Positions 33,048 to 63,000 of a DNA stretch of 64,000 nt are shown here, one piece after another. The stretch is from the sequence record MW598459, one strand, 5' to 3'. The position numbers and the translations under genes are program-made. The notes below the pieces were generated by a model. The model did not search any database, was not told where the DNA came from, and worked only from the letters and a program-made list of their open reading frames with translations. The DNA is from Escherichia phage vB_EcoM_RZ. Each line of letters begins with the position of its first letter. Position 1 is the stretch's first letter.

Positions 33048-33395
33048 TTACTTATAAAGACAAGGAACAGCTTTATAATGACAAGTCACAAATTTCTGCT
33101 TAACTTCTTTAGCCTGCTTAAGTCCCAGTGCAACCAGAGGATGTGGAACGTTTGCAATCTTGCCAACCGGAAGAGGAGTCAAATCACCTACTTCGCAGAA
33201 TCCTTCAGGAACATCCGGACCAACCGAAAATACTTCACACATCTCCGGGATTTCACCCTGATGGAGTTTTCCGATAACGATACCTGATGCCGTAGTTTCT
33301 TCATCACCAGCTTGCTTTGGCTCAGAAACCAAAATAATATATTCACCTACTGCTTTAATTGGTAATTCCATATTTAATCCATGTTGTTTGGTCAT
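33048..33395 (-). CDS. 31: Co-chaperonin gp31 (GroES-like)
   Basis: 115 aa; near-identical to T4 gp31 (LPI.AVGEY.ILVSEP.QAGDEE.T.SG...[20 protein letters not shown]...[30 protein letters not shown]). Confidence 0.92.
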
Positions 33396-33426
33396 GTATT
33401 AATAATAGCATGCATTGTTTGAAGCA

Positions 33427-33726
33427 TTAAAGGACGAGCAGAGTCTCGGTCTGCAGTCCATTCACGGAAATCAATTTATTGAAACAGAATGAACGCCATT
33501 CATTAAGCTTGGTATCAAATACCCGGATATAGCTAACTGGTTCTTTATTGGCTTCTGGTCCAGGGGCCTGGATTTCTTTATACGGTAGCAGGTCCAGGTC
33601 GCGAGTACAAGTCATACGACGGATGCTACCATCTGCTTTTTCAAACAGAACTTCGTGAAAACCAACAGACAAAATAGTCTTGACTTTTTCACGGAGACGA
33701 ATTGTTTCTTGTTCAGTTAAAATCAT
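33427..33726 (-). CDS. Hypothetical protein (99 aa), 31.1 position
   Basis: ORF between cd and gene 31. Confidence 0.5.
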   Translation of the reverse strand: MILTEQETIRLREKVKTILSVGFHEVLFEKADGSIRRMTCTRDLDLLPYKEIQAPGPEANKEPVSYIRVFDTKLNEWRSFCFNKLISVNGLQTETLLVL

Positions 33727-38409: not shown

Positions 38410-38439
38410 ATTATACTCTGCTCCCATAAGTTTGTACAC
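38410..38439 (-). promoter_or_regulatory. Early-type promoter (GTGTACA, 17 nt spacer, TATAAT) with the -10 in a hairpin loop
   Basis: Minus strand reads GTGTACAaacttatgggagcagagTATAATgctccc; GGGAGCA / TGCTCCC inverted repeat flanks the -10. Confidence 0.5.
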
Positions 38440-38542
38440 TACTTTCCAAAAAGACCTTGGACACATAAAGTGGCCGCAATTCCAAAACAAAAACAGAATG
38501 CACCAAATCTAACAATATCCCAACCAAGGCTACAGGTCTCAA

Positions 38543-38833
38543 TCATTTACAACGTTCCTCTTTTAGTTCAGAACGATAATAACATAACATACCTTTTTGG
38601 TCATGTACATATCTTTTTACATCATTCATCCAAATCCTGAATTCTTGCGATGCTTCAAAAGGCATACCAACCCAGGCTTGACCCTCAATTACCTTAACTT
38701 CCCATTGCTGTTTGTAATCAGCCAATGCAACAGGCCAATTAGGATGAACTTGGATTGTGGGCTCCACAACGGGCTTCTGGGCACATGAAACGAGTCCAAT
38801 AGCCAAACATACTGCCATGATAGATTTCATCAT
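38543..38833 (-). CDS. Outer-membrane spanin (o-spanin lipoprotein), pseT.2 position
   Basis: 96 aa; N-terminal signal peptide with lipobox-like LVSC (MMKSIMAVCLAIGLVSCAQ); lies downstream of an i-spanin-like gene, as for T4 pseT.3/pseT.2. Confidence 0.65.
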   Translation of the reverse strand: MMKSIMAVCLAIGLVSCAQKPVVEPTIQVHPNWPVALADYKQQWEVKVIEGQAWVGMPFEASQEFRIWMNDVKRYVHDQKGMLCYYRSELKEERCK

Positions 38834-45756: not shown

Positions 45757-46002
45757 TTAAATTGTCTCTGGTAGTTCCGAAGTCATTTCATCATTATATT
45801 CTTCTTCTGACTGGACAGTGATGTCAAAATATGACTGGACGTCACCGGCTGAATCATGACAGTAGACACGTTCATGTCTTTTGGCCAGAAATTTGATTCC
45901 GTCAATAGTGATATAAGAATTTGGGGCAGGTAAATCCTGTTCGGTAAATTGTGGCATTTCAAAAATGACTTCGCCTGACTGGCGTTTAAATCGTAAATTC
46001 AT
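45757..46002 (-). CDS. Hypothetical protein (81 aa)
   Basis: ORF in the td-nrdA interval. Confidence 0.5.
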   Translation of the reverse strand: MNLRFKRQSGEVIFEMPQFTEQDLPAPNSYITIDGIKFLAKRHERVYCHDSAGDVQSYFDITVQSEEEYNDEMTSELPETI

Positions 46003-46061: not shown

Positions 46062-46361
46062 TTATGTACCCAAATCCTCGAGCGAAAAGGTGTCTTTGAA
46101 AAGTTTGTTAACGACCAGAGCGATAATATCACCATGACATGACTTCGGTTTGCATGTGCAGGCTAATCGCATTCCGCGGAGAGTTTCAAGGTGTTCTCTT
46201 TTGATTTCACCCGATTTAATCTTTGCTATGAAATATTCTTTAAAGTTTTTTATGTTTTCTTCTCGGGTACCATCTTTATATGGGTTTCCCCACATGGTAC
46301 CCCGTTGAATATTCACATCAAAGTCGGATTGATATTTGTTAACAACCCGACAGGCTTTCAT
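46062..46361 (-). CDS. Hypothetical protein (99 aa), possibly DUF4326-like
   Basis: Motifs GNPYK...R and L.CTCKPKSCHGDII recalled as typical of a phage family found near nrd genes; recollection only, not searched. Confidence 0.45.
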   Translation of the reverse strand: MKACRVVNKYQSDFDVNIQRGTMWGNPYKDGTREENIKNFKEYFIAKIKSGEIKREHLETLRGMRLACTCKPKSCHGDIIALVVNKLFKDTFSLEDLGT

Positions 46362-46423
46362 AATAGGAAGTTAAGCCCGACCATTACGGCCAGAAATAAA
46401 ATACCGGCAATTTGAATTTTCAT
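46358..46423 (-). CDS. Candidate hydrophobic micro-protein (21 aa), translationally coupled on both sides
   Basis: Hand-translated MKIQIAGILFLAVMVGLNFLL; its ATG overlaps the upstream stop (TAATG) and its TGA overlaps the downstream ATG (ATGA). Confidence 0.35.
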   Translation of the reverse strand: MKIQIAGILFLAVMVGLNFLL

Positions 46424-46619
46424 TATACCTCGACAATAAACCAGATAGACCGATTGAAATCATCATATTCATACGATTTAATCACACGCATAACATAAAG
46501 TTCTTTGTTCTGGACAAAAATCGTTGTTTTCTCTTTAGGCAGTTCATCGAGACTTATGTTCATTTTTTCAAACAGCACCTCATTGGTGCCGTATCTATTG
46601 TTTACTATACGAATATTCA

Positions 46620-46620
<1 letters not shown>
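46423..46620 (-). CDS. Hypothetical protein (65 aa)
   Basis: ORF immediately downstream of td with 1 nt overlap. Confidence 0.45.
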
Positions 46621-48395
<1,775 letters not shown>

Positions 48396-51950: not shown

Positions 51951-52600
51951 AACTTACACCCTTTAACAGTCTCGATGAACAATTTACGGGCTTCAAGAGA
52001 ATCGATATTTAAGATTTTCTTATAAGCATTTAGTTTAGTTGAATACTTTTCCCAAACCAAGTCGTTAGTCTGTTCATCATGTTGGTCTATTATACCTAAA
52101 AATGAATCAAGCAAACAAAACGTTTCAAATGAAATAACATTCGATTGGAGAAGTTTGAAAATATAACTTGTATTCACTTTAGTATTATACTCGAAAATCT
52201 CTTGGAGCGATTTGACTTCGACTTTCTTACTGAAGTAATAGATGTTCTTTATATCATCTTCGTATACTTGTCTAATTCTTTTAAGTCGGCCAATGTATTC
52301 TCTATAAAATATCAGAGCATCGGCATCACTTATATCGCCTATCCATGCATCCTGGTTCGCAACCAGGTTTGACATGAATATTAACGTTAATTCTTTAAGA
52401 GTGTACTTATCGCTAAGCTTTTCGAAAAAATACTTATCGCGACGTTTTTGATAAGCACTATCGGAGATTCGCATGGTCCAGTTATATTTGATAATATCAT
52501 AACGACCCGAAAAATGCTGTTTGATGGATAAGTACAGTTGGTATACTGATTTACCATTTATATATCGGTTGTTATTTGGAGGCATGCGAATCGTAATCAT
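51947..52600 (-). CDS. 59: Helicase loader gp59
   Basis: 217 aa, same length as T4 gp59; near-identical (DGKSVY.LYL.IKQH..G.YD.IKYNW.MR.SD.AYQKRRDKYFF.KLS.KY.LKEL.LIF.SNLVANQDAWIGDISDADAL.FYREYIGRLK). Confidence 0.93.
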   Translation of the reverse strand: MITIRMPPNNNRYINGKSVYQLYLSIKQHFSGRYDIIKYNWTMRISDSAYQKRRDKYFFEKLSDKYTLKELTLIFMSNLVANQDAWIGDISDADALIFYREYIGRLKRIRQVYEDDIKNIYYFSKKVEVKSLQEIFEYNTKVNTSYIFKLLQSNVISFETFCLLDSFLGIIDQHDEQTNDLVWEKYSTKLNAYKKILNIDSLEARKLFIETVKGCKF

Positions 52601-52917
52601 AACAAAAAGTCCAGCGTATTAGTTTTCTGTGTACGAGACATACTCGGGCGAAGCAAGTTATCATCATATGCTTCATTCATAATCTTATCGACGATTCCCG
52701 CAGGGATATATCGCGCAAAATTACCTTCAGGAATTCCACGTTCTTCCAACCAGGCAGTCGCAGCTTCCAGATAAGACATTTCAGTTGTCTCGACCATGGC
52801 TTCAATATCAAGCCCGTTTTGCTGCTTACTAATCGCCCCGGAAGGCGATTCAGTTTTCTGTGTATCAAAATTAACTAAAGAGGACATCATAGAGCTCCAC
52901 AGCTTCGGTTTTTTCAT
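52597..52917 (-). CDS. 33: Late transcription accessory protein gp33
   Basis: C-terminus ...RYIP.G...KI.NEAY.DNL.RP......K...LDFL matches remembered T4 gp33; start is ambiguous (ATG at 52917 gives 106 aa; ATG at 52890 with GGAG ribosome-binding site gives 97 aa). Confidence 0.7.
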   Translation of the reverse strand: MKKPKLWSSMMSSLVNFDTQKTESPSGAISKQQNGLDIEAMVETTEMSYLEAATAWLEERGIPEGNFARYIPAGIVDKIMNEAYDDNLLRPSMSRTQKTNTLDFLL

Positions 52918-60007: not shown

Positions 60008-63000
60008 ATGGCTACTTTAAAACAAATACAATTTAAAAGAAGTAAGGTTGCCGGCGTTCGTCCGGCGCCAACAGTTCTTGCTGAAGGTGAACTGGCTATC
60101 AACCTGAAAGACCGCTTACTTTTTACTAAAGATGACACCGGCGCCATCATCGACCTTGGCTTTGCTAAAGGTGGTAATATTGACGGTAACGTTATTCATA
60201 AAGGAAATTACAATCAAACCGGCGCCTATACTATAGCCGGAGATATTTCACAAACGTCTGGACATTTTACTACTACTGGTAATATAACAGCAAATGGTGA
60301 TATTACTGCAAAAGCCCGTTTAATGACAGATAACGGTGAAGTTCTTGTACGAGGTACAGGAACCACTCATGTTCGATTCCAGGATTTGGCTGATGCTCGC
60401 GAAAGAGGTATAATTTATTCTCAAAACCGTACTGGGGATACCAAGCAAATCTTGAACGTTCGTGTCCAGGATTATACTAATTCAACATCTAATATTTTTG
60501 CATTCAACGGTGACGGTTTATTTTATGCTCCATCTATTTCCGGTGGAACATCAATAAAATCTCCGGTAATTTATACTAATACCGTTGATACCGGTAATAA
60601 ATCAGCTCTTGATTATGATATATCTTCATTGGCAAATAATAATCCTGCAAGTTCAAGTGCAACATCTATTAACTATCTTAGAATAAGTAGACATGCTGTC
60701 GATGGAATTAGGTATCGTGAACTTAATAATGTAAATGGTATTTCATGGCATTCTATTTCTACAGCCGGAACAGCTAAGTATCTTTGGTCATTTAATGCAG
60801 ATGGAGATGTCAAAACATCAAATTCTCTTTCCGTTGGCCTACCTGGGGATAGCTCAGGATACTCAACATTAGGTCCGTCTGCTATCGCACTTGGCGACAA
60901 TAACACAGGTTTGAAATGGAGACAAGACGGCCAGTTCCATATAGTTAATAATGGAGCTTATACTTTACTTACAACTCCGACTGAAGTTACAAGCCTTAAA
61001 CAGTTAGTTGCGGGTTATTCAACCAACGGTTCTGATTTAATTCTCCCTACAGCCCAAAACTATCCATTAGTTATTGTTAATACTACTAATGATAAAAACG
61101 GCTTCGGTGACGGTCAAACTCTTTTAGGATATCACCAAAGCGGCAAATATCACCATTATTTTCGTGGCAAAGGTGTAACAAACGTTAACACCGATGGTGG
61201 GTTGTTGGTTACTCCTGGTAACGTTGAAGTCCGTGGTGGTTCGGTTAATATTGATGGTCTCAGTAATGCTTCGACAGTGCTTTTTAAAGGAAATACAACA
61301 GGAAGTAGTTCAGTTGATAATATAGAGCTCAAAGTTTGGGGTGACACTTTTAATACGGTAGATGGTTCTCGTAAAAACGTAATGGAAACATCTGATGCTA
61401 CCGGCTGGATGCATTATATTCAACGAACTACAGCAGGTAAAGTCGAATCCTATTTAAATGGTACCATGAATGTAATTGAAGGATTGACTGTCAATCAAGA
61501 TACATCCTTAAAACGCAATCTGTATGTTTCCAATGAAATTAAAGTTCGCGCTGCTAGTGGTCTTCGTATTTGGAACGATAAGTACGGTGTTATTTTTCGA
61601 AATTCGGAAGACCAGCTGCATATTATCCCGACCAATGTTAATGCCGGCGAAAGTGGCGGATTAGGCCCATTACGCCCATTAAGTATTACGTTAGACACTG
61701 GTCAAGTTAAAATCCCTAATTTAGCGGCTGACCAAGTTTCTTTTATTGCTAACAGCGTATTAGAATTCCCTGCTGGTAATGGTGCATCTTATGCCAACCA
61801 GAATACGACTAAAGCTCCGTTGTATCAAACACTTGGTGCAGCAACCCAAGCATTCTATCCAATTACCAAGCAGAAAAATACAGTTTCTAATGTAACTATT
61901 ACTCAAGGTATGGACCGCGCTACAAGCGAATACCGAATTGTTGCTCAAGGCGATTTGCTTGGTGATGGTGATGCTACAGGATTAAAATATTGGCGCTTTA
62001 CCAAAGAAGGTAACTTCATGGCTCAGAACCGCTTATATGCCGGTACAGCTTATATGAATACCGATGGTAATATTGCAGGTTCTATTTGGAAAAAGTATAG
62101 CGGTGCTACTAACCTTGATGCAGCAGTGAATACTCGTGTCGGTAAAAGTGGTGACACAATGACCGGGCGTTTAACTCTTAATGCAAACTCGGATGCTATT
62201 GTTATTAACAGTGCTGCAACCGAATCTGGTTATATGAAAGGACAAAAAGCTGGTATTGATAACTGGTATGTAGGTAACGGCGGTGCCGATAATGCTGTAT
62301 CAATTTATAGTTTTCAAACTAATTCAGGCGTAAATATTAATGCAGACGGCGATATTGCTTTAAACCCACAAGGTTCAGCCACTTTTAATTTTAATAGGGA
62401 CCGTCTTTTTATTAATGGCTCTGTCTGGGCATCCCACCAGGCTGGCGATTGGGGAAACCAATGGAAGCAAGAAGCACCGGTATTTGTTGATTTTGGTAAT
62501 GTTGGTAATGATAGTTATTATCCGATTATCAAAGGAAAATCTGGTATTACTAACGAAGGATTCATATCAGGTGTAGATTTCGGTATGCGTCGTATCACTA
62601 ATAACTGGGCGCAAGGTATTATTCGTGTAGGTAACCAGGAAAACGGTTCTGACCCACAAGCTATCTATGAATTCCACCACAATGGAGTTCTGTATGTTCC
62701 TAACATGGTTAAAACTGGAGCAAGATTATCAGCTGGTGGTGGTGACCCTGTATGGACCGGTCCGTGTCTTGTTATTGGTGATAATGATACAGGATTAGTT
62801 CATGGTGGTGACGGCCGAATCAATATGGTTGCAAATGGTGCACATATTGCATCTTGGTCTAGCTCTTACCATATCCATGAAGGTCTTTGGGATACTCATG
62901 GTGCTTTGTGGACTGAAACAGGAAGAGCTATTATTTCTTTTGGTCATTTAGTCCAACAAAGTGATGCCTATTCTACATATGTTCGAGATGTTTATGTCCG

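What the first reader, a model, noticed from the sequence alone, without database searches (positions are those of the whole stretch)
46358..46423. 21 aa hydrophobic micro-ORF translationally coupled to both neighbours
MKIQIAGILFLAVMVGLNFLL would form a single transmembrane helix. Its ATG overlaps the stop of the upstream 65 aa gene (TAATG) and its stop overlaps the ATG of the downstream 99 aa gene (ATGA). That precise fit in a compact operon argues it is translated despite being far below usual ORF cutoffs.
Basis: seen in the sequence. Interest (0 to 1): 0.45.

Follow-up and report, generated by a model that had tools for sequence, protein, structure and literature searches.

The report
Unannotated 21-codon membrane-peptide gene after td
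A 21-codon open reading frame in the nucleotide-synthesis operon of a T4-like E. coli phage is a real, conserved but never-annotated gene for a very small, very hydrophobic peptide that probably sits in the host inner membrane; what it does there is unknown.

Summary
On the minus strand, 46423..46358 encodes MKIQIAGILFLAVMVGLNFLL. Its ATG overlaps the stop of the 65-aa gene (TAATG) and its stop overlaps the ATG of the 99-aa gene (ATGA). The window is a Gaprivervirus (T4-like), gene order frd-td-65aa-microORF-nrdA.1-nrdA.2-nrdA.

The double overlap alone is weak evidence; comparison makes the case. tblastn finds the frame full-length in 80 Gaprivervirus/Dhakavirus records, always after td. All 22 fetched copies are exactly 21 codons, without indels or stops, and it is the only frame open in all. 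Between genera dN/dS is 0.09 in this frame against 0.5 and 2.0 in the others. Its constraint lies between td's and nrdA.1's. The ORF survives when the 65-aa gene, nrdA.1 or both are absent. Gelderlandvirus carries a 25-36-codon homologue in the same slot.

RNA-structure and Rfam tests are negative. No Pfam, PHROGs, NCBIfam or PADLOC family matches, and the peptide is absent from a 15-billion-protein collection.

Best reading: a translated, translationally coupled small membrane peptide whose sequence is itself selected, which also relays ribosomes to nrdA.1. It is a new member of a known kind, the small hydrophobic membrane proteins. Target and function are unknown.

The parts
46358..46423 (-). 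Micro-ORF: 21 codons plus TGA stop, encoding MKIQIAGILFLAVMVGLNFLL
   Evidence: Conserved at 21 codons in all 22 fetched genomes. dN/dS 0.088 in this frame. Hydrophobic core at residues 5-21.
46421..46425 (-). TAATG: stop of the 65-aa gene overlapping the micro-ORF ATG by 1 nt
   Evidence: Where the 65-aa gene is absent (VR7, TH54, SP18), the same motif joins td directly to the micro-ORF.
46427..46431 (-). Shine-Dalgarno-like GAGGT, 3 nt upstream of the micro-ORF ATG; it lies in the last codons (E-V) of the 65-aa gene
   Evidence: Read from the sequence. It is absent in the td-coupled contexts, where only weak G-rich runs precede the ATG.
46358..46361 (-). ATGA: micro-ORF stop (TGA) overlapping the nrdA.1-like ATG by 4 nt; no SD-like sequence precedes this ATG (cttaacttcctatt)
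   Evidence: In Dhakavirus the junction is TAATG instead.
46423..46620 (-). Upstream 65-aa gene, a paralogue of nrdA.2 (phrog_2458); a dispensable cassette flanked by ggtMtaATGaaWattc repeats
   Evidence: Absent in TH54, PSD2001, VR7 and SP18.
46062..46361 (-). Downstream 99-aa gene, T4 NrdA.1-like, DUF4326
   Evidence: PF14216, E = 2e-21. Absent in VR7, SP18, CJ20, VR5 and IME08 although the micro-ORF is retained.
46620..47480 (-). td (thymidylate synthase), the gene the micro-ORF follows in every lineage, either directly or after one inserted gene

Best explanation
The micro-ORF is a genuine protein-coding gene, not annotated in any record examined. It sits in the early/middle nucleotide-metabolism operon (frd-td-...-nrdA) of Gaprivervirus, Dhakavirus and, in a slightly longer form, Gelderlandvirus phages.

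Proposed mechanism:
1. Ribosomes finishing the upstream cistron re-initiate at the overlapping ATG. The upstream cistron is td, or an inserted nrdA.2-like gene as in this window. In this window a GAGGT 3 nt upstream helps.
2. They make a 21-residue peptide consisting of Met-Lys followed by a 17-residue hydrophobic segment that ends at the C-terminus.
3. The peptide is too short to emerge from the ribosome before release, so it inserts post-translationally into the host inner membrane. The likely topology is N-in/C-out, as a single minimal helix.
4. In the membrane it acts through helix-helix contacts, either self-association or binding to a host or phage membrane protein. The invariant residues are I5, F10, L11, L17, N18 and L21, with a small G or S at position 16.
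5. Where nrdA.1 follows, ribosomes terminating on the micro-ORF re-initiate on nrdA.1, whose start has no Shine-Dalgarno of its own here. The micro-ORF therefore also relays translation.

Shown: the ORF, its overlaps, its conservation, purifying selection on the amino-acid sequence, and its persistence in changing contexts. Inferred: translation, membrane insertion, topology, mode of action and the relay role. The molecular target is unknown.
For: Frame and length: 21 codons in all 22 fetched genomes, comprising 20 distinct nucleotide sequences and 15 peptide variants, with no indels or stops. It is the only one of six frames open in all. tblastn finds it full-length in 80 phage records, all immediately downstream of td or of one inserted gene.

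Selection: between-genus dN/dS is 0.088 in frame, against 0.50 and 1.97 in the other two frames. Variable sites fall 12/3/15 on codon positions 1/2/3. Random placement of the observed substitutions gives as few amino-acid changes in only 1-5% of trials, and an open frame that stays as hydrophobic in 0.6-3%. Uncorrected pN/pS is 0.21, between the td tail (0.41) and nrdA.1 (0.07), and synonymous sites are as saturated as in those genes.

Independence from neighbours: the ORF is retained as td-micro-nrdA in VR7, VR25, SP18, CJ20, VR5, IME08 and EscoB01. It is retained as td-micro-nrdA.1 in TH54, PSD2001, JS98, Bp7 and ESCO10, and as td-65aa-micro-nrdA.1 in the window, P479 and others. The overlap motifs differ by context (TAATG or ATGA at the start; ATGA, TAATG or a plain TAA at the end), yet the ORF is always stop-start coupled upstream.

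Third genus: in Gelderlandvirus STP4-a and STML-198 a 25-codon version is coupled to td by ATGA. In S16 and CGG4-1 a 36-codon version is coupled by ATGA to an inserted 75-aa gene. All end ...SLNLFL-stop. Leave-out profile searches rank the two groups as each other's top hits among 22,214 ORF segments.

Contrast with non-coding DNA: the adjacent spacer has several indels and rewritten sequence.

Hydrophobicity: summed insertion energy is -1.4 to -4.6 kcal/mol for most variants, and the ORF is an extreme outlier among same-size ORFs in the window.

Precedent: IbsC, at 19 aa, is almost entirely transmembrane helix, and small membrane proteins insert post-translationally via SRP with SecYEG or YidC (PMC12648545).
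Against: There is no direct evidence of translation or membrane localisation: no ribosome profiling, proteomics or tagging data are available for these phages. The between-genus comparisons are not independent, since they mostly sample one deep branch plus shallow variation, and 63 nt is a small sample. The simulation P values are only about 0.01-0.05 per pair. A 17-residue hydrophobic stretch containing two Gly and one Asn is at the short end for a membrane span. CJ20 carries G16R in the middle of the segment, raising its insertion energy to about 0; this may be a sequencing error or tolerated variation. In td-coupled contexts there is no good Shine-Dalgarno, so expression may be low. Homology with the Gelderlandvirus peptide is marginal on sequence alone (E = 0.003-0.37) and leans on synteny. 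The family is absent from T4 itself and from other T4-like genera, so whatever it does is not essential to the T4 lifestyle.
Confidence: 0.72

Rival explanations
1. Pure translational relay. The ORF exists only to carry ribosomes from td (or the 65-aa gene) to nrdA.1 by successive termination and re-initiation, and the peptide is an irrelevant by-product.
For: Both ends overlap neighbouring cistrons. The nrdA.1 start has no Shine-Dalgarno in this window. In other genera nrdA.1 is likewise always stop-start coupled to whatever ORF precedes it (L013, L014).
Against: The ORF is retained, at the same length and sequence, in at least seven genomes where nrdA.1 is deleted. There it ends in a plain TAA followed by a spacer of about 65 nt with a hairpin before nrdA. 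A relay needs only an open frame, yet the amino-acid sequence is under purifying selection (dN/dS 0.09) and hydrophobicity is maintained. Direct overlap of td with nrdA.1 would be simpler.
Confidence: 0.1
2. The peptide is real but acts as an Ibs/TisB-like membrane-depolarising toxin or viroporin, an oligomeric pore, and not as a modulator of a specific membrane protein.
For: Its size and composition resemble IbsC, a 19-aa toxin that is almost all transmembrane helix and depolarises the membrane (PMC12648545). The invariant Asn18 with a small residue at position 16 could drive helix oligomerisation; this point rests on my own knowledge of polar residues in transmembrane helices.
Against: There is no sequence match to any curated toxin or small-protein family. 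No conserved antisense RNA arrangement was found: the one opposite-strand promoter-like site, 46336-46364, is within chance expectation, and its sequence lies within nrdA.1, which is deleted in genomes that keep the micro-ORF. Early depolarisation of the host would seem costly to a phage that needs an energised cell for about 25 min. Nothing tested here distinguishes a pore from a partner-binding peptide.
Confidence: 0.12
3. A conserved non-coding element (structured RNA, promoter or protein-binding site, or recombination site) that happens to be open in one frame.
For: The first 14 nt (ATGAAAATTCAAAT) are almost invariant, synonymous sites included. The region lies at a recombination-prone cassette boundary.
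Against: The RNA fold is no more stable than shuffled sequence (z = +0.32, 120 of 200 shuffles fold at least as well). There is no Rfam match at E up to 1, and no promoter or terminator consensus on the coding strand inside the ORF. Synonymous sites overall are as saturated as in the neighbouring genes (pS 0.71 against 0.80 and 0.81), and substitutions follow the codon frame. The conserved 5' end is what a selected initiation region looks like.
Confidence: 0.03
4. The real gene is the alternative-frame ORF that some depositors annotated across this region: the 'nrdA.1' extended upstream in JS98 and ESCO10, and the 55-aa 'nrdA.1' gp219 of IME08.
For: Those CDS features exist in GenBank and RefSeq records, and that frame is open in the Dhakaviruses.
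Against: That frame contains stops in 15 of 22 genomes and has dN/dS of about 2. The extension overlaps td by 40-70 nt. Other depositors start nrdA.1 at the ATG that abuts the micro-ORF stop.
Confidence: 0.02
5. A chance ORF, or a decaying remnant of a longer gene.
For: Doubly-overlapped short ORFs are not rare in this compact genome. In S16 the ORF carries an 11-residue N-terminal extension that looks like a fragment of another gene family.
Against: The ORF is the same 21 codons in all 22 fetched genomes of two genera, and tblastn covers the full frame in 80 records. It has the same C-terminus in a third genus. No degraded copy was seen, and there is purifying selection.
Confidence: 0.01

Closest known systems
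Bacterial small membrane proteins of 50 aa or fewer (e.g. YohP, 27 aa; YkgR)
   Same: A single hydrophobic helix with only a few flanking residues, routinely missed by annotation pipelines, and too short for co-translational targeting, so inserted post-translationally (PMC12648545).
   Different: This peptide is phage-encoded, shorter at 21 aa with no C-terminal tail, and embedded by overlapping stop/start codons in a nucleotide-metabolism operon. There is no sequence similarity.
IbsC and other type I toxins (19-35 aa hydrophobic peptides)
   Same: Length and near-total hydrophobicity. IbsC is 19 aa and almost entirely transmembrane helix (PMC12648545).
   Different: No match to curated models. 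No cognate antisense RNA gene was detected. It is expressed as part of a polycistronic phage operon, not as a repressed stand-alone toxin.
Small phage-encoded transmembrane peptides that target host membrane enzymes (e.g. the single-gene lysis peptides of ssRNA phages) or serve as coat proteins (Pf3 coat, 44 aa, YidC-inserted). These examples are from my own knowledge and were not tested here.
   Same: A phage gene that encodes little more than one transmembrane helix.
   Different: Those are late or structural functions in unrelated phages and are 35-90 aa long. This one is in an early/middle metabolic operon of T4-like phages and has no detectable homology to them.
Stop-start overlap coupling (ATGA / TAATG) in compact phage operons
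   Same: The same motifs link frd-td-65aa-micro-nrdA.1 here. Termination and re-initiation is the established reading of such overlaps.
   Different: Here an entire selected gene of 63 nt sits between two such junctions, and the junction type changes with context while the gene stays constant.
T4 td-nrdA interval (td, nrdA.2, nrdA.1, nrdA)
   Same: The same gene families flank the site: nrdA.2/DUF5496 and nrdA.1/DUF4326.
   Different: T4 has no micro-ORF. Its td is followed after 20 nt by nrdA.2, which overlaps nrdA.1 by 47 nt.

Membership tests
Small single-helix membrane proteins (general class) | Length of 50 aa or fewer with one hydrophobic segment long enough to span the bilayer | tested here: met
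   The peptide is 21 aa. Residues 5-21 give a summed insertion energy of -1.56 kcal/mol, and other variants give -1.4 to -4.6. Only 2 of 281 same-size ORFs in the window reach 0 or below (scale values from memory). Seventeen residues is at the short end.
Small single-helix membrane proteins (general class) | The ORF is translated | not testable with these tools
   Only indirect support: dN/dS of 0.09 in frame, stop-start coupling and a GAGGT upstream. No ribosome profiling or proteomics data are available.
Small single-helix membrane proteins (general class) | The product localises to the membrane | not testable with these tools
   Inferred from hydrophobicity only.
Small single-helix membrane proteins (general class) | Evolutionary conservation as a coding sequence | tested here: met
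   tblastn covers the full frame in 80 records. All 22 fetched copies are 21 codons without indels or stops. The codon-position pattern, dN/dS and simulation support coding. A third genus carries a homologue in the same slot.
Ibs / type I toxin-antitoxin toxins | Sequence match to a curated toxin family model | tested here: not met
   No NCBIfam, Pfam, PHROGs or PADLOC hit at E up to 1-10, apart from insignificant compositional matches at E = 0.11 and 0.74.
Ibs / type I toxin-antitoxin toxins | A cognate antisense RNA gene overlapping the toxin mRNA | tested here: not met
   One opposite-strand promoter-like site lies at 46336-46364, but the number of sites in the region equals the shuffle expectation (5 found, 4.0 +/- 2.0 expected). 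Its sequence lies within nrdA.1, which is deleted in genomes that retain the micro-ORF. There is no Rfam sRNA hit.
Ibs / type I toxin-antitoxin toxins | Toxicity or membrane depolarisation on expression | not testable with these tools
   Needs an experiment.
Regulatory leader peptide / attenuator uORF | Alternative RNA structures coupled to translation of the short ORF | tested here: not met
   The fold z-score is +0.32. In genomes with a downstream hairpin, the hairpin starts 16 nt after the stop and there is no alternative pairing with the ORF. There is no Rfam leader family.
Regulatory leader peptide / attenuator uORF | The peptide sequence is unimportant apart from regulatory codons | tested here: not met
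   The whole peptide is under purifying selection and six residues are invariant across three genera.
C-terminal extension of Td by -1 frameshifting (membrane-anchored Td) | A slippery heptamer in the td frame within the stretch where the micro-ORF frame is open upstream | tested here: not met
   No X XXY YYZ motif occurs in the last 12 td codons (sequence read). In this window and in S16 the upstream gene is not td at all.

The most novel reading that the evidence does not exclude
This 21-residue membrane peptide is a functional component of the phage's deoxynucleotide-supply module, and its place there is not accidental. For example, it might bind and block or re-tune a host inner-membrane protein that affects thymidine or nucleotide pools or energy supply. 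Alternatively, it might nucleate the dNTP-synthesising enzymes at the membrane through oligomers held by the invariant Asn. Its persistent position directly after td in three genera, through repeated gain and loss of every neighbouring gene, would then reflect a need for co-expression with Td. It would be among the smallest conserved functional genes known in T4-like phages.
Probability: 0.12. Interest if true: 0.7.

Novelty: new member of a known kind. Interest (0 to 1): 0.45.

Why it matters
T4-like phages are among the most intensively annotated viruses. Yet this gene is missing as a CDS of its own from every annotated record fetched here, none of the 80 tblastn-positive records lists a plausible separate CDS for it, and it is absent from a 15-billion-protein collection, simply because it is below gene-caller length cut-offs. 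In several records the space is filled by an incorrect alternative-frame ORF. The case shows that comparative codon-level tests can rescue genes of about 20 codons. It adds a candidate host-membrane effector to the early programme of three phage genera, some of which are used in phage therapy and biocontrol collections. It also gives a clean natural experiment in which a mini-gene is retained while every neighbouring cassette is swapped. If the peptide has a specific membrane target, it would be a minimal, easily synthesised probe or inhibitor for that target.

Tried and rejected
1. The DNA pattern ATGAAAATTCAAATYGCYGG in IMG/VR gave two extra contigs (L030, L033). These are chance matches to the start of an unrelated long protein and were discarded.
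2. tblastn with the Gelderlandvirus peptide returned nothing, not even itself. BLAST's low-complexity filter masked the query, so the result is uninformative.
3. The search for homologous proteins refuses queries under 40 aa. Structure prediction needs at least 30 aa and the look-up of encoding contigs needs at least 30 aa, so none of the three could be applied to the 21-aa peptide.
5. A td-alignment scan spread to thymidylate synthases in general. It was useful only as a background set for the profile search.
6. Peptide-alignment scans of metagenome and viral contigs found only the same phage groups.
7. RNA-structure, Rfam, promoter and terminator explanations were tested and found negative.
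8. A -1 frameshift fusion to Td was rejected because there is no slippery site and the upstream gene varies.
9. The first dN/dS calibration run was invalid (off-by-one slice and an indel) and was redone.
10. The candidate 27-aa doubly-overlapped ORF at 52597-52680 was an artefact, an internal ATG of a 128-aa ORF.
11. Literature searches found no paper on this interval or peptide.

Full report
**1. The observation**

The ORF lies on the minus strand, from 46423 to 46358 including its stop, and translates to MKIQIAGILFLAVMVGLNFLL. The pentamer TAATG at 46425..46421 is both the stop of the 65-aa ORF (46620..46423) and the micro-ORF start. The tetramer ATGA at 46361..46358 is both the start of the 99-aa ORF (46361..46062) and the micro-ORF stop.

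Upstream, frd/td overlap by ATGA and td/65-aa by TAATG. Five cistrons are therefore chained by overlapping stop and start codons.

**2. Where we are**

The window is a T4-like Escherichia phage of the genus Gaprivervirus, 98% identical to P479, TH41 and UPEC01. On the minus strand the order is:
- frd (48058-47477)
- td (47480-46620)
- a 65-aa gene
- the micro-ORF
- a 99-aa DUF4326 protein, annotated by others as T4 NrdA.1-like
- an 81-aa DUF5496 protein, NrdA.2-like
- nrdA (45723-43468)

The 65-aa gene hits the same PHROG as the 81-aa gene (phrog_2458), so it is an nrdA.2 paralogue. None of the annotated records fetched calls the micro-ORF as a CDS of its own; a 61-nt gap is left there.

**3. 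Is the double overlap itself remarkable?**

Not very. A crude scan of the window for ATG-ORFs of 8-45 codons that overlap both an upstream stop and a downstream start found three. One was an internal ATG of a 128-aa ORF and one is an 11-codon ORF.

The hydrophobicity is remarkable. Among 281 ATG-ORFs of 18-25 codons in the window, only 2 have a 17-residue summed insertion energy of 0 or below and only 1 reaches -0.9 or below, while the micro-ORF scores -1.56 (scale values from memory).

**4. Comparative evidence for coding**

*Distribution and integrity*
- tblastn with the peptide finds 80 phage records, all Gaprivervirus or Dhakavirus, all full-length, and all next to td.
- I fetched 22 genomes. 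All carry exactly 21 codons, with 20 distinct nucleotide sequences and 15 peptide variants, and no indels or stops.
- It is the only one of six frames open in all 22.

*Selection on the amino-acid sequence*
- Variable sites fall 12/3/15 on codon positions 1/2/3. This is the pattern expected when position-2 T, which specifies hydrophobic residues, is protected.
- Between the genera, Nei-Gojobori dN/dS is 0.088 in this frame, against 0.50 and 1.97 in the other two frames.
- Placing the observed number of substitutions at random gives as few amino-acid changes in only 1-5% of trials, and an open frame that stays as hydrophobic in 0.6-3%.
- Over the same genome pairs, uncorrected pN/pS is 0.21 for the micro-ORF, 0.41 for the last 25 codons of td and 0.07 for nrdA.1.
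- Synonymous differences are equally saturated in all three (0.71, 0.80 and 0.81), so no extra nucleotide-level constraint is visible.

*Contrast with non-coding DNA*
- The spacer between the micro-ORF stop and nrdA, in genomes where the ORF stands alone, has several indels and is largely rewritten between genera.

*Caveats*
- The sample is only 63 nt.
- The pairwise comparisons share history and are not independent.

**5. The natural deletion series**

The interval between td and nrdA is a cassette site. Three arrangements occur:
- td-micro-nrdA in VR7, VR25, SP18, CJ20 (Gaprivervirus) and in VR5, IME08, EscoB01 (Dhakavirus)
- td-micro-nrdA.1-(nrdA.2)-nrdA in TH54, TH57, PSD2001, JS98, dhabil, Bp7 and ESCO10
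- td-65aa-micro-nrdA.1-(nrdA.2)-nrdA in the window, P479, VR26, MN01 and others, with VR20 lacking nrdA.2

The micro-ORF is the constant element. Its start always overlaps the stop of whatever precedes it: TAATG in Gaprivervirus and ATGA in Dhakavirus. Its stop overlaps nrdA.1 when that gene is present: ATGA in Gaprivervirus and TAATG in Dhakavirus. When nrdA.1 is absent the stop is a plain TAA. A pure ribosome relay to nrdA.1 cannot explain retention where nrdA.1 is missing.

The 65-aa cassette is flanked by near-identical 16-nt junctions, ggtCtaATGaaTattc and ggtAtaATGaaAattc. The micro-ORF of SP18 starts ATGaatattcaaattg (K2N), a hybrid of the two. This suggests excision by recombination between the repeats (inference).

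**6. A third genus**

In Salmonella phages of the genus Gelderlandvirus the same slot holds a longer version.
- STP4-a and STML-198 have MTAMNKLTIALIIFLIIIISLNLFL (25 aa), overlapping the td stop by ATGA.
- S16 and CGG4-1 have a different gene (75 aa) inserted after td. There the ORF is 36 codons and starts at an ATG overlapping that gene's stop, again by ATGA.

Aligned, I5, F10, L11, L17, N18 and L21 are invariant across the three genera. Position 16 is G or S, and all end three residues after the Asn.

A profile built without the Gelderlandvirus peptides ranks them as the top four non-members among 22,214 ORF segments (E = 0.003-0.37). The reciprocal profile ranks Gaprivervirus and Dhakavirus peptides in the next 25 places before any unrelated segment. 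Sequence evidence alone is marginal for so short and hydrophobic a peptide. With identical synteny, I consider homology likely.

**7. Limits of the family**

- T4 has no such ORF: its td is followed after 20 nt by nrdA.2.
- In other T4-like genera, DNA homology ends at the td stop.
- A profile search of 130 loci shows a clean gap between members (E of 1.5e-8 or lower) and noise (E of 1.2 or higher).
- Scans of IMG/VR and of metagenome contigs with the peptide alignment returned only the same groups, plus one metagenomic Gaprivervirus contig with the window's arrangement.

**8. Rivals at the nucleic-acid level**

- The 106-nt region folds no better than shuffled sequence (z = +0.32).
- There is no Rfam match at E up to 1.
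- Promoter- and terminator-like sites in the region are at chance frequency, and none lies on the coding strand inside the ORF.
- The alternative frame that depositors annotated across the region (extended 'nrdA.1' in JS98 and ESCO10, gp219 in IME08) has stops in 15 of 22 genomes and dN/dS of about 2.
- A -1 frameshift fusion to Td is excluded: there is no slippery heptamer, and the upstream gene varies.

**9. What is known**

- No Pfam, PHROGs, NCBIfam or PADLOC model matches; the best scores are insignificant compositional hits.
- None of seven variants is present in a collection of about 15 billion predicted proteins.
- No paper on this interval was found.
- The closest known things are functional analogues, not relatives: bacterial small membrane proteins and type I toxins. 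A recent review notes that IbsC is 19 aa and almost entirely transmembrane helix. It also notes that small membrane proteins such as YohP are targeted post-translationally by SRP to SecYEG or YidC (PMC12648545).

**10. Mechanism**

*Shown:* a selected, hydrophobic 21-codon gene that is stop-start coupled upstream in every context.

*Inferred:*
- Ribosomes terminating on td or on the inserted gene re-initiate on it. In this window a GAGGT 3 nt upstream adds a Shine-Dalgarno, whereas the td-coupled contexts have only weak G-rich runs.
- The released peptide, Met-Lys plus 17-19 apolar residues, inserts post-translationally. By the positive-inside rule it would sit N-in/C-out. This fits the variable N-terminal extensions in Gelderlandvirus and the strictly fixed C-terminus.
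- It acts within the bilayer through the conserved G/S-L-N face, either by self-association or by binding a membrane protein.
- Where nrdA.1 follows, the micro-ORF also passes ribosomes on. The nrdA.1 start has no Shine-Dalgarno here and is stop-start coupled in every genus examined.

The target and the physiological role are unknown. The fixed position after td hints at co-expression with the nucleotide module but proves nothing.

**11. Verdict**

The ORF is a real, unannotated gene family confined to three genera of enterobacterial T4-like phages. It is a new member of a known kind, the small hydrophobic membrane proteins. Interest is moderate (0.45): it is a clean example with an attractive natural deletion series and a testable peptide, but the class is known and the function is open.

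Noticed in passing
window 46423-46620 (-) and 45757-46002 (-): The 65-aa gene upstream of the micro-ORF and the 81-aa nrdA.2-like gene both match phrog_2458, and the 81-aa gene also matches DUF5496, so the operon carries two nrdA.2 paralogues. The 65-aa copy is flanked by near-identical 16-nt junction repeats (ggtMtaATGaaWattc). SP18's micro-ORF start (ATGaatattcaaattg, K2N) looks like a recombination scar from its excision.
   Followed up: partly
L006 664-1059 (JS98 EpJS98_0225); L038 414-809 (ESCO10_00063); L037 387-554 (IME08_gp219): These deposited 'nrdA.1' or hypothetical CDS features extend in an alternative frame across the micro-ORF and into td. That frame has stops in 15 of 22 genomes and dN/dS of about 2, so they are probably mis-annotations. 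In IME08 the real nrdA.1 is deleted and gp219 is only the alternative-frame ORF.
   Followed up: yes
L005 455-500 (VR7); L039/L040 about 530-575 (Dhakavirus); alignment A1 columns 160-205: Between the micro-ORF stop and nrdA there is a hairpin whose stems differ completely between genera: GGGGTCATG...CATGACCCC followed by TTTT in Gaprivervirus, and GGTTCTA...TAGAACC in Dhakavirus. The loop contains a TATAAG/TATAGA -10-like hexamer. It could be a terminator or a promoter-stem-loop cassette boundary. In the window this hairpin is not present after nrdA.1.
   Followed up: no
window 38439-38546 (-): A 35-codon hydrophobic ORF (MIETCSLGWDIVRFGAFCFCFGIAATLCVQGLFGK) has an ATG that overlaps the stop of a 96-aa lipoprotein-like gene (MMKSIMAVCLAIGLVSC...). 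It is another candidate small membrane protein.
   Followed up: no
window 33392-33427 (-) and 61124-61156 (-): An 11-codon ORF ([11 protein letters not shown]) overlaps both neighbours by stop/start motifs. A 10-codon hydrophobic ORF ([10 protein letters not shown]) overlaps an upstream stop. Neither has been tested.
   Followed up: no
L050 434-544 (S16); L020 3033-3143 (CGG4-1): The 36-codon Gelderlandvirus version begins MITRFVNDTGS. This resembles the N-terminus of the 62-aa gene family found after td in other T4-like phages (MITKFTNALGS in L014-L016), a member of which lies just downstream in S16 (MLIKFTSEYG). It looks like a recombination scar that re-created stop-start coupling to the inserted 75-aa gene.
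   Followed up: partly
L043 451-516 (phage CJ20): The CJ20 copy carries K2Q and G16R, which puts an arginine in the middle of the hydrophobic segment and raises the insertion energy to about 0. It is the only non-conservative variant seen, and could be a sequencing error, a decaying copy or tolerated variation.
   Followed up: no
window 46336-46364 (+): An opposite-strand sigma-70-like site (TTGTTA, 17 nt, CATAAT) would drive transcription antisense to the micro-ORF. The count of such sites in the region equals the shuffle expectation, and the site's sequence lies within nrdA.1, which is deleted in genomes that keep the micro-ORF.
   Followed up: partly
L038 (phage ESCO10, OM386655.1): In this record td and nrdA are both labelled 'thioredoxin', which is evidently an annotation error.
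   Followed up: no
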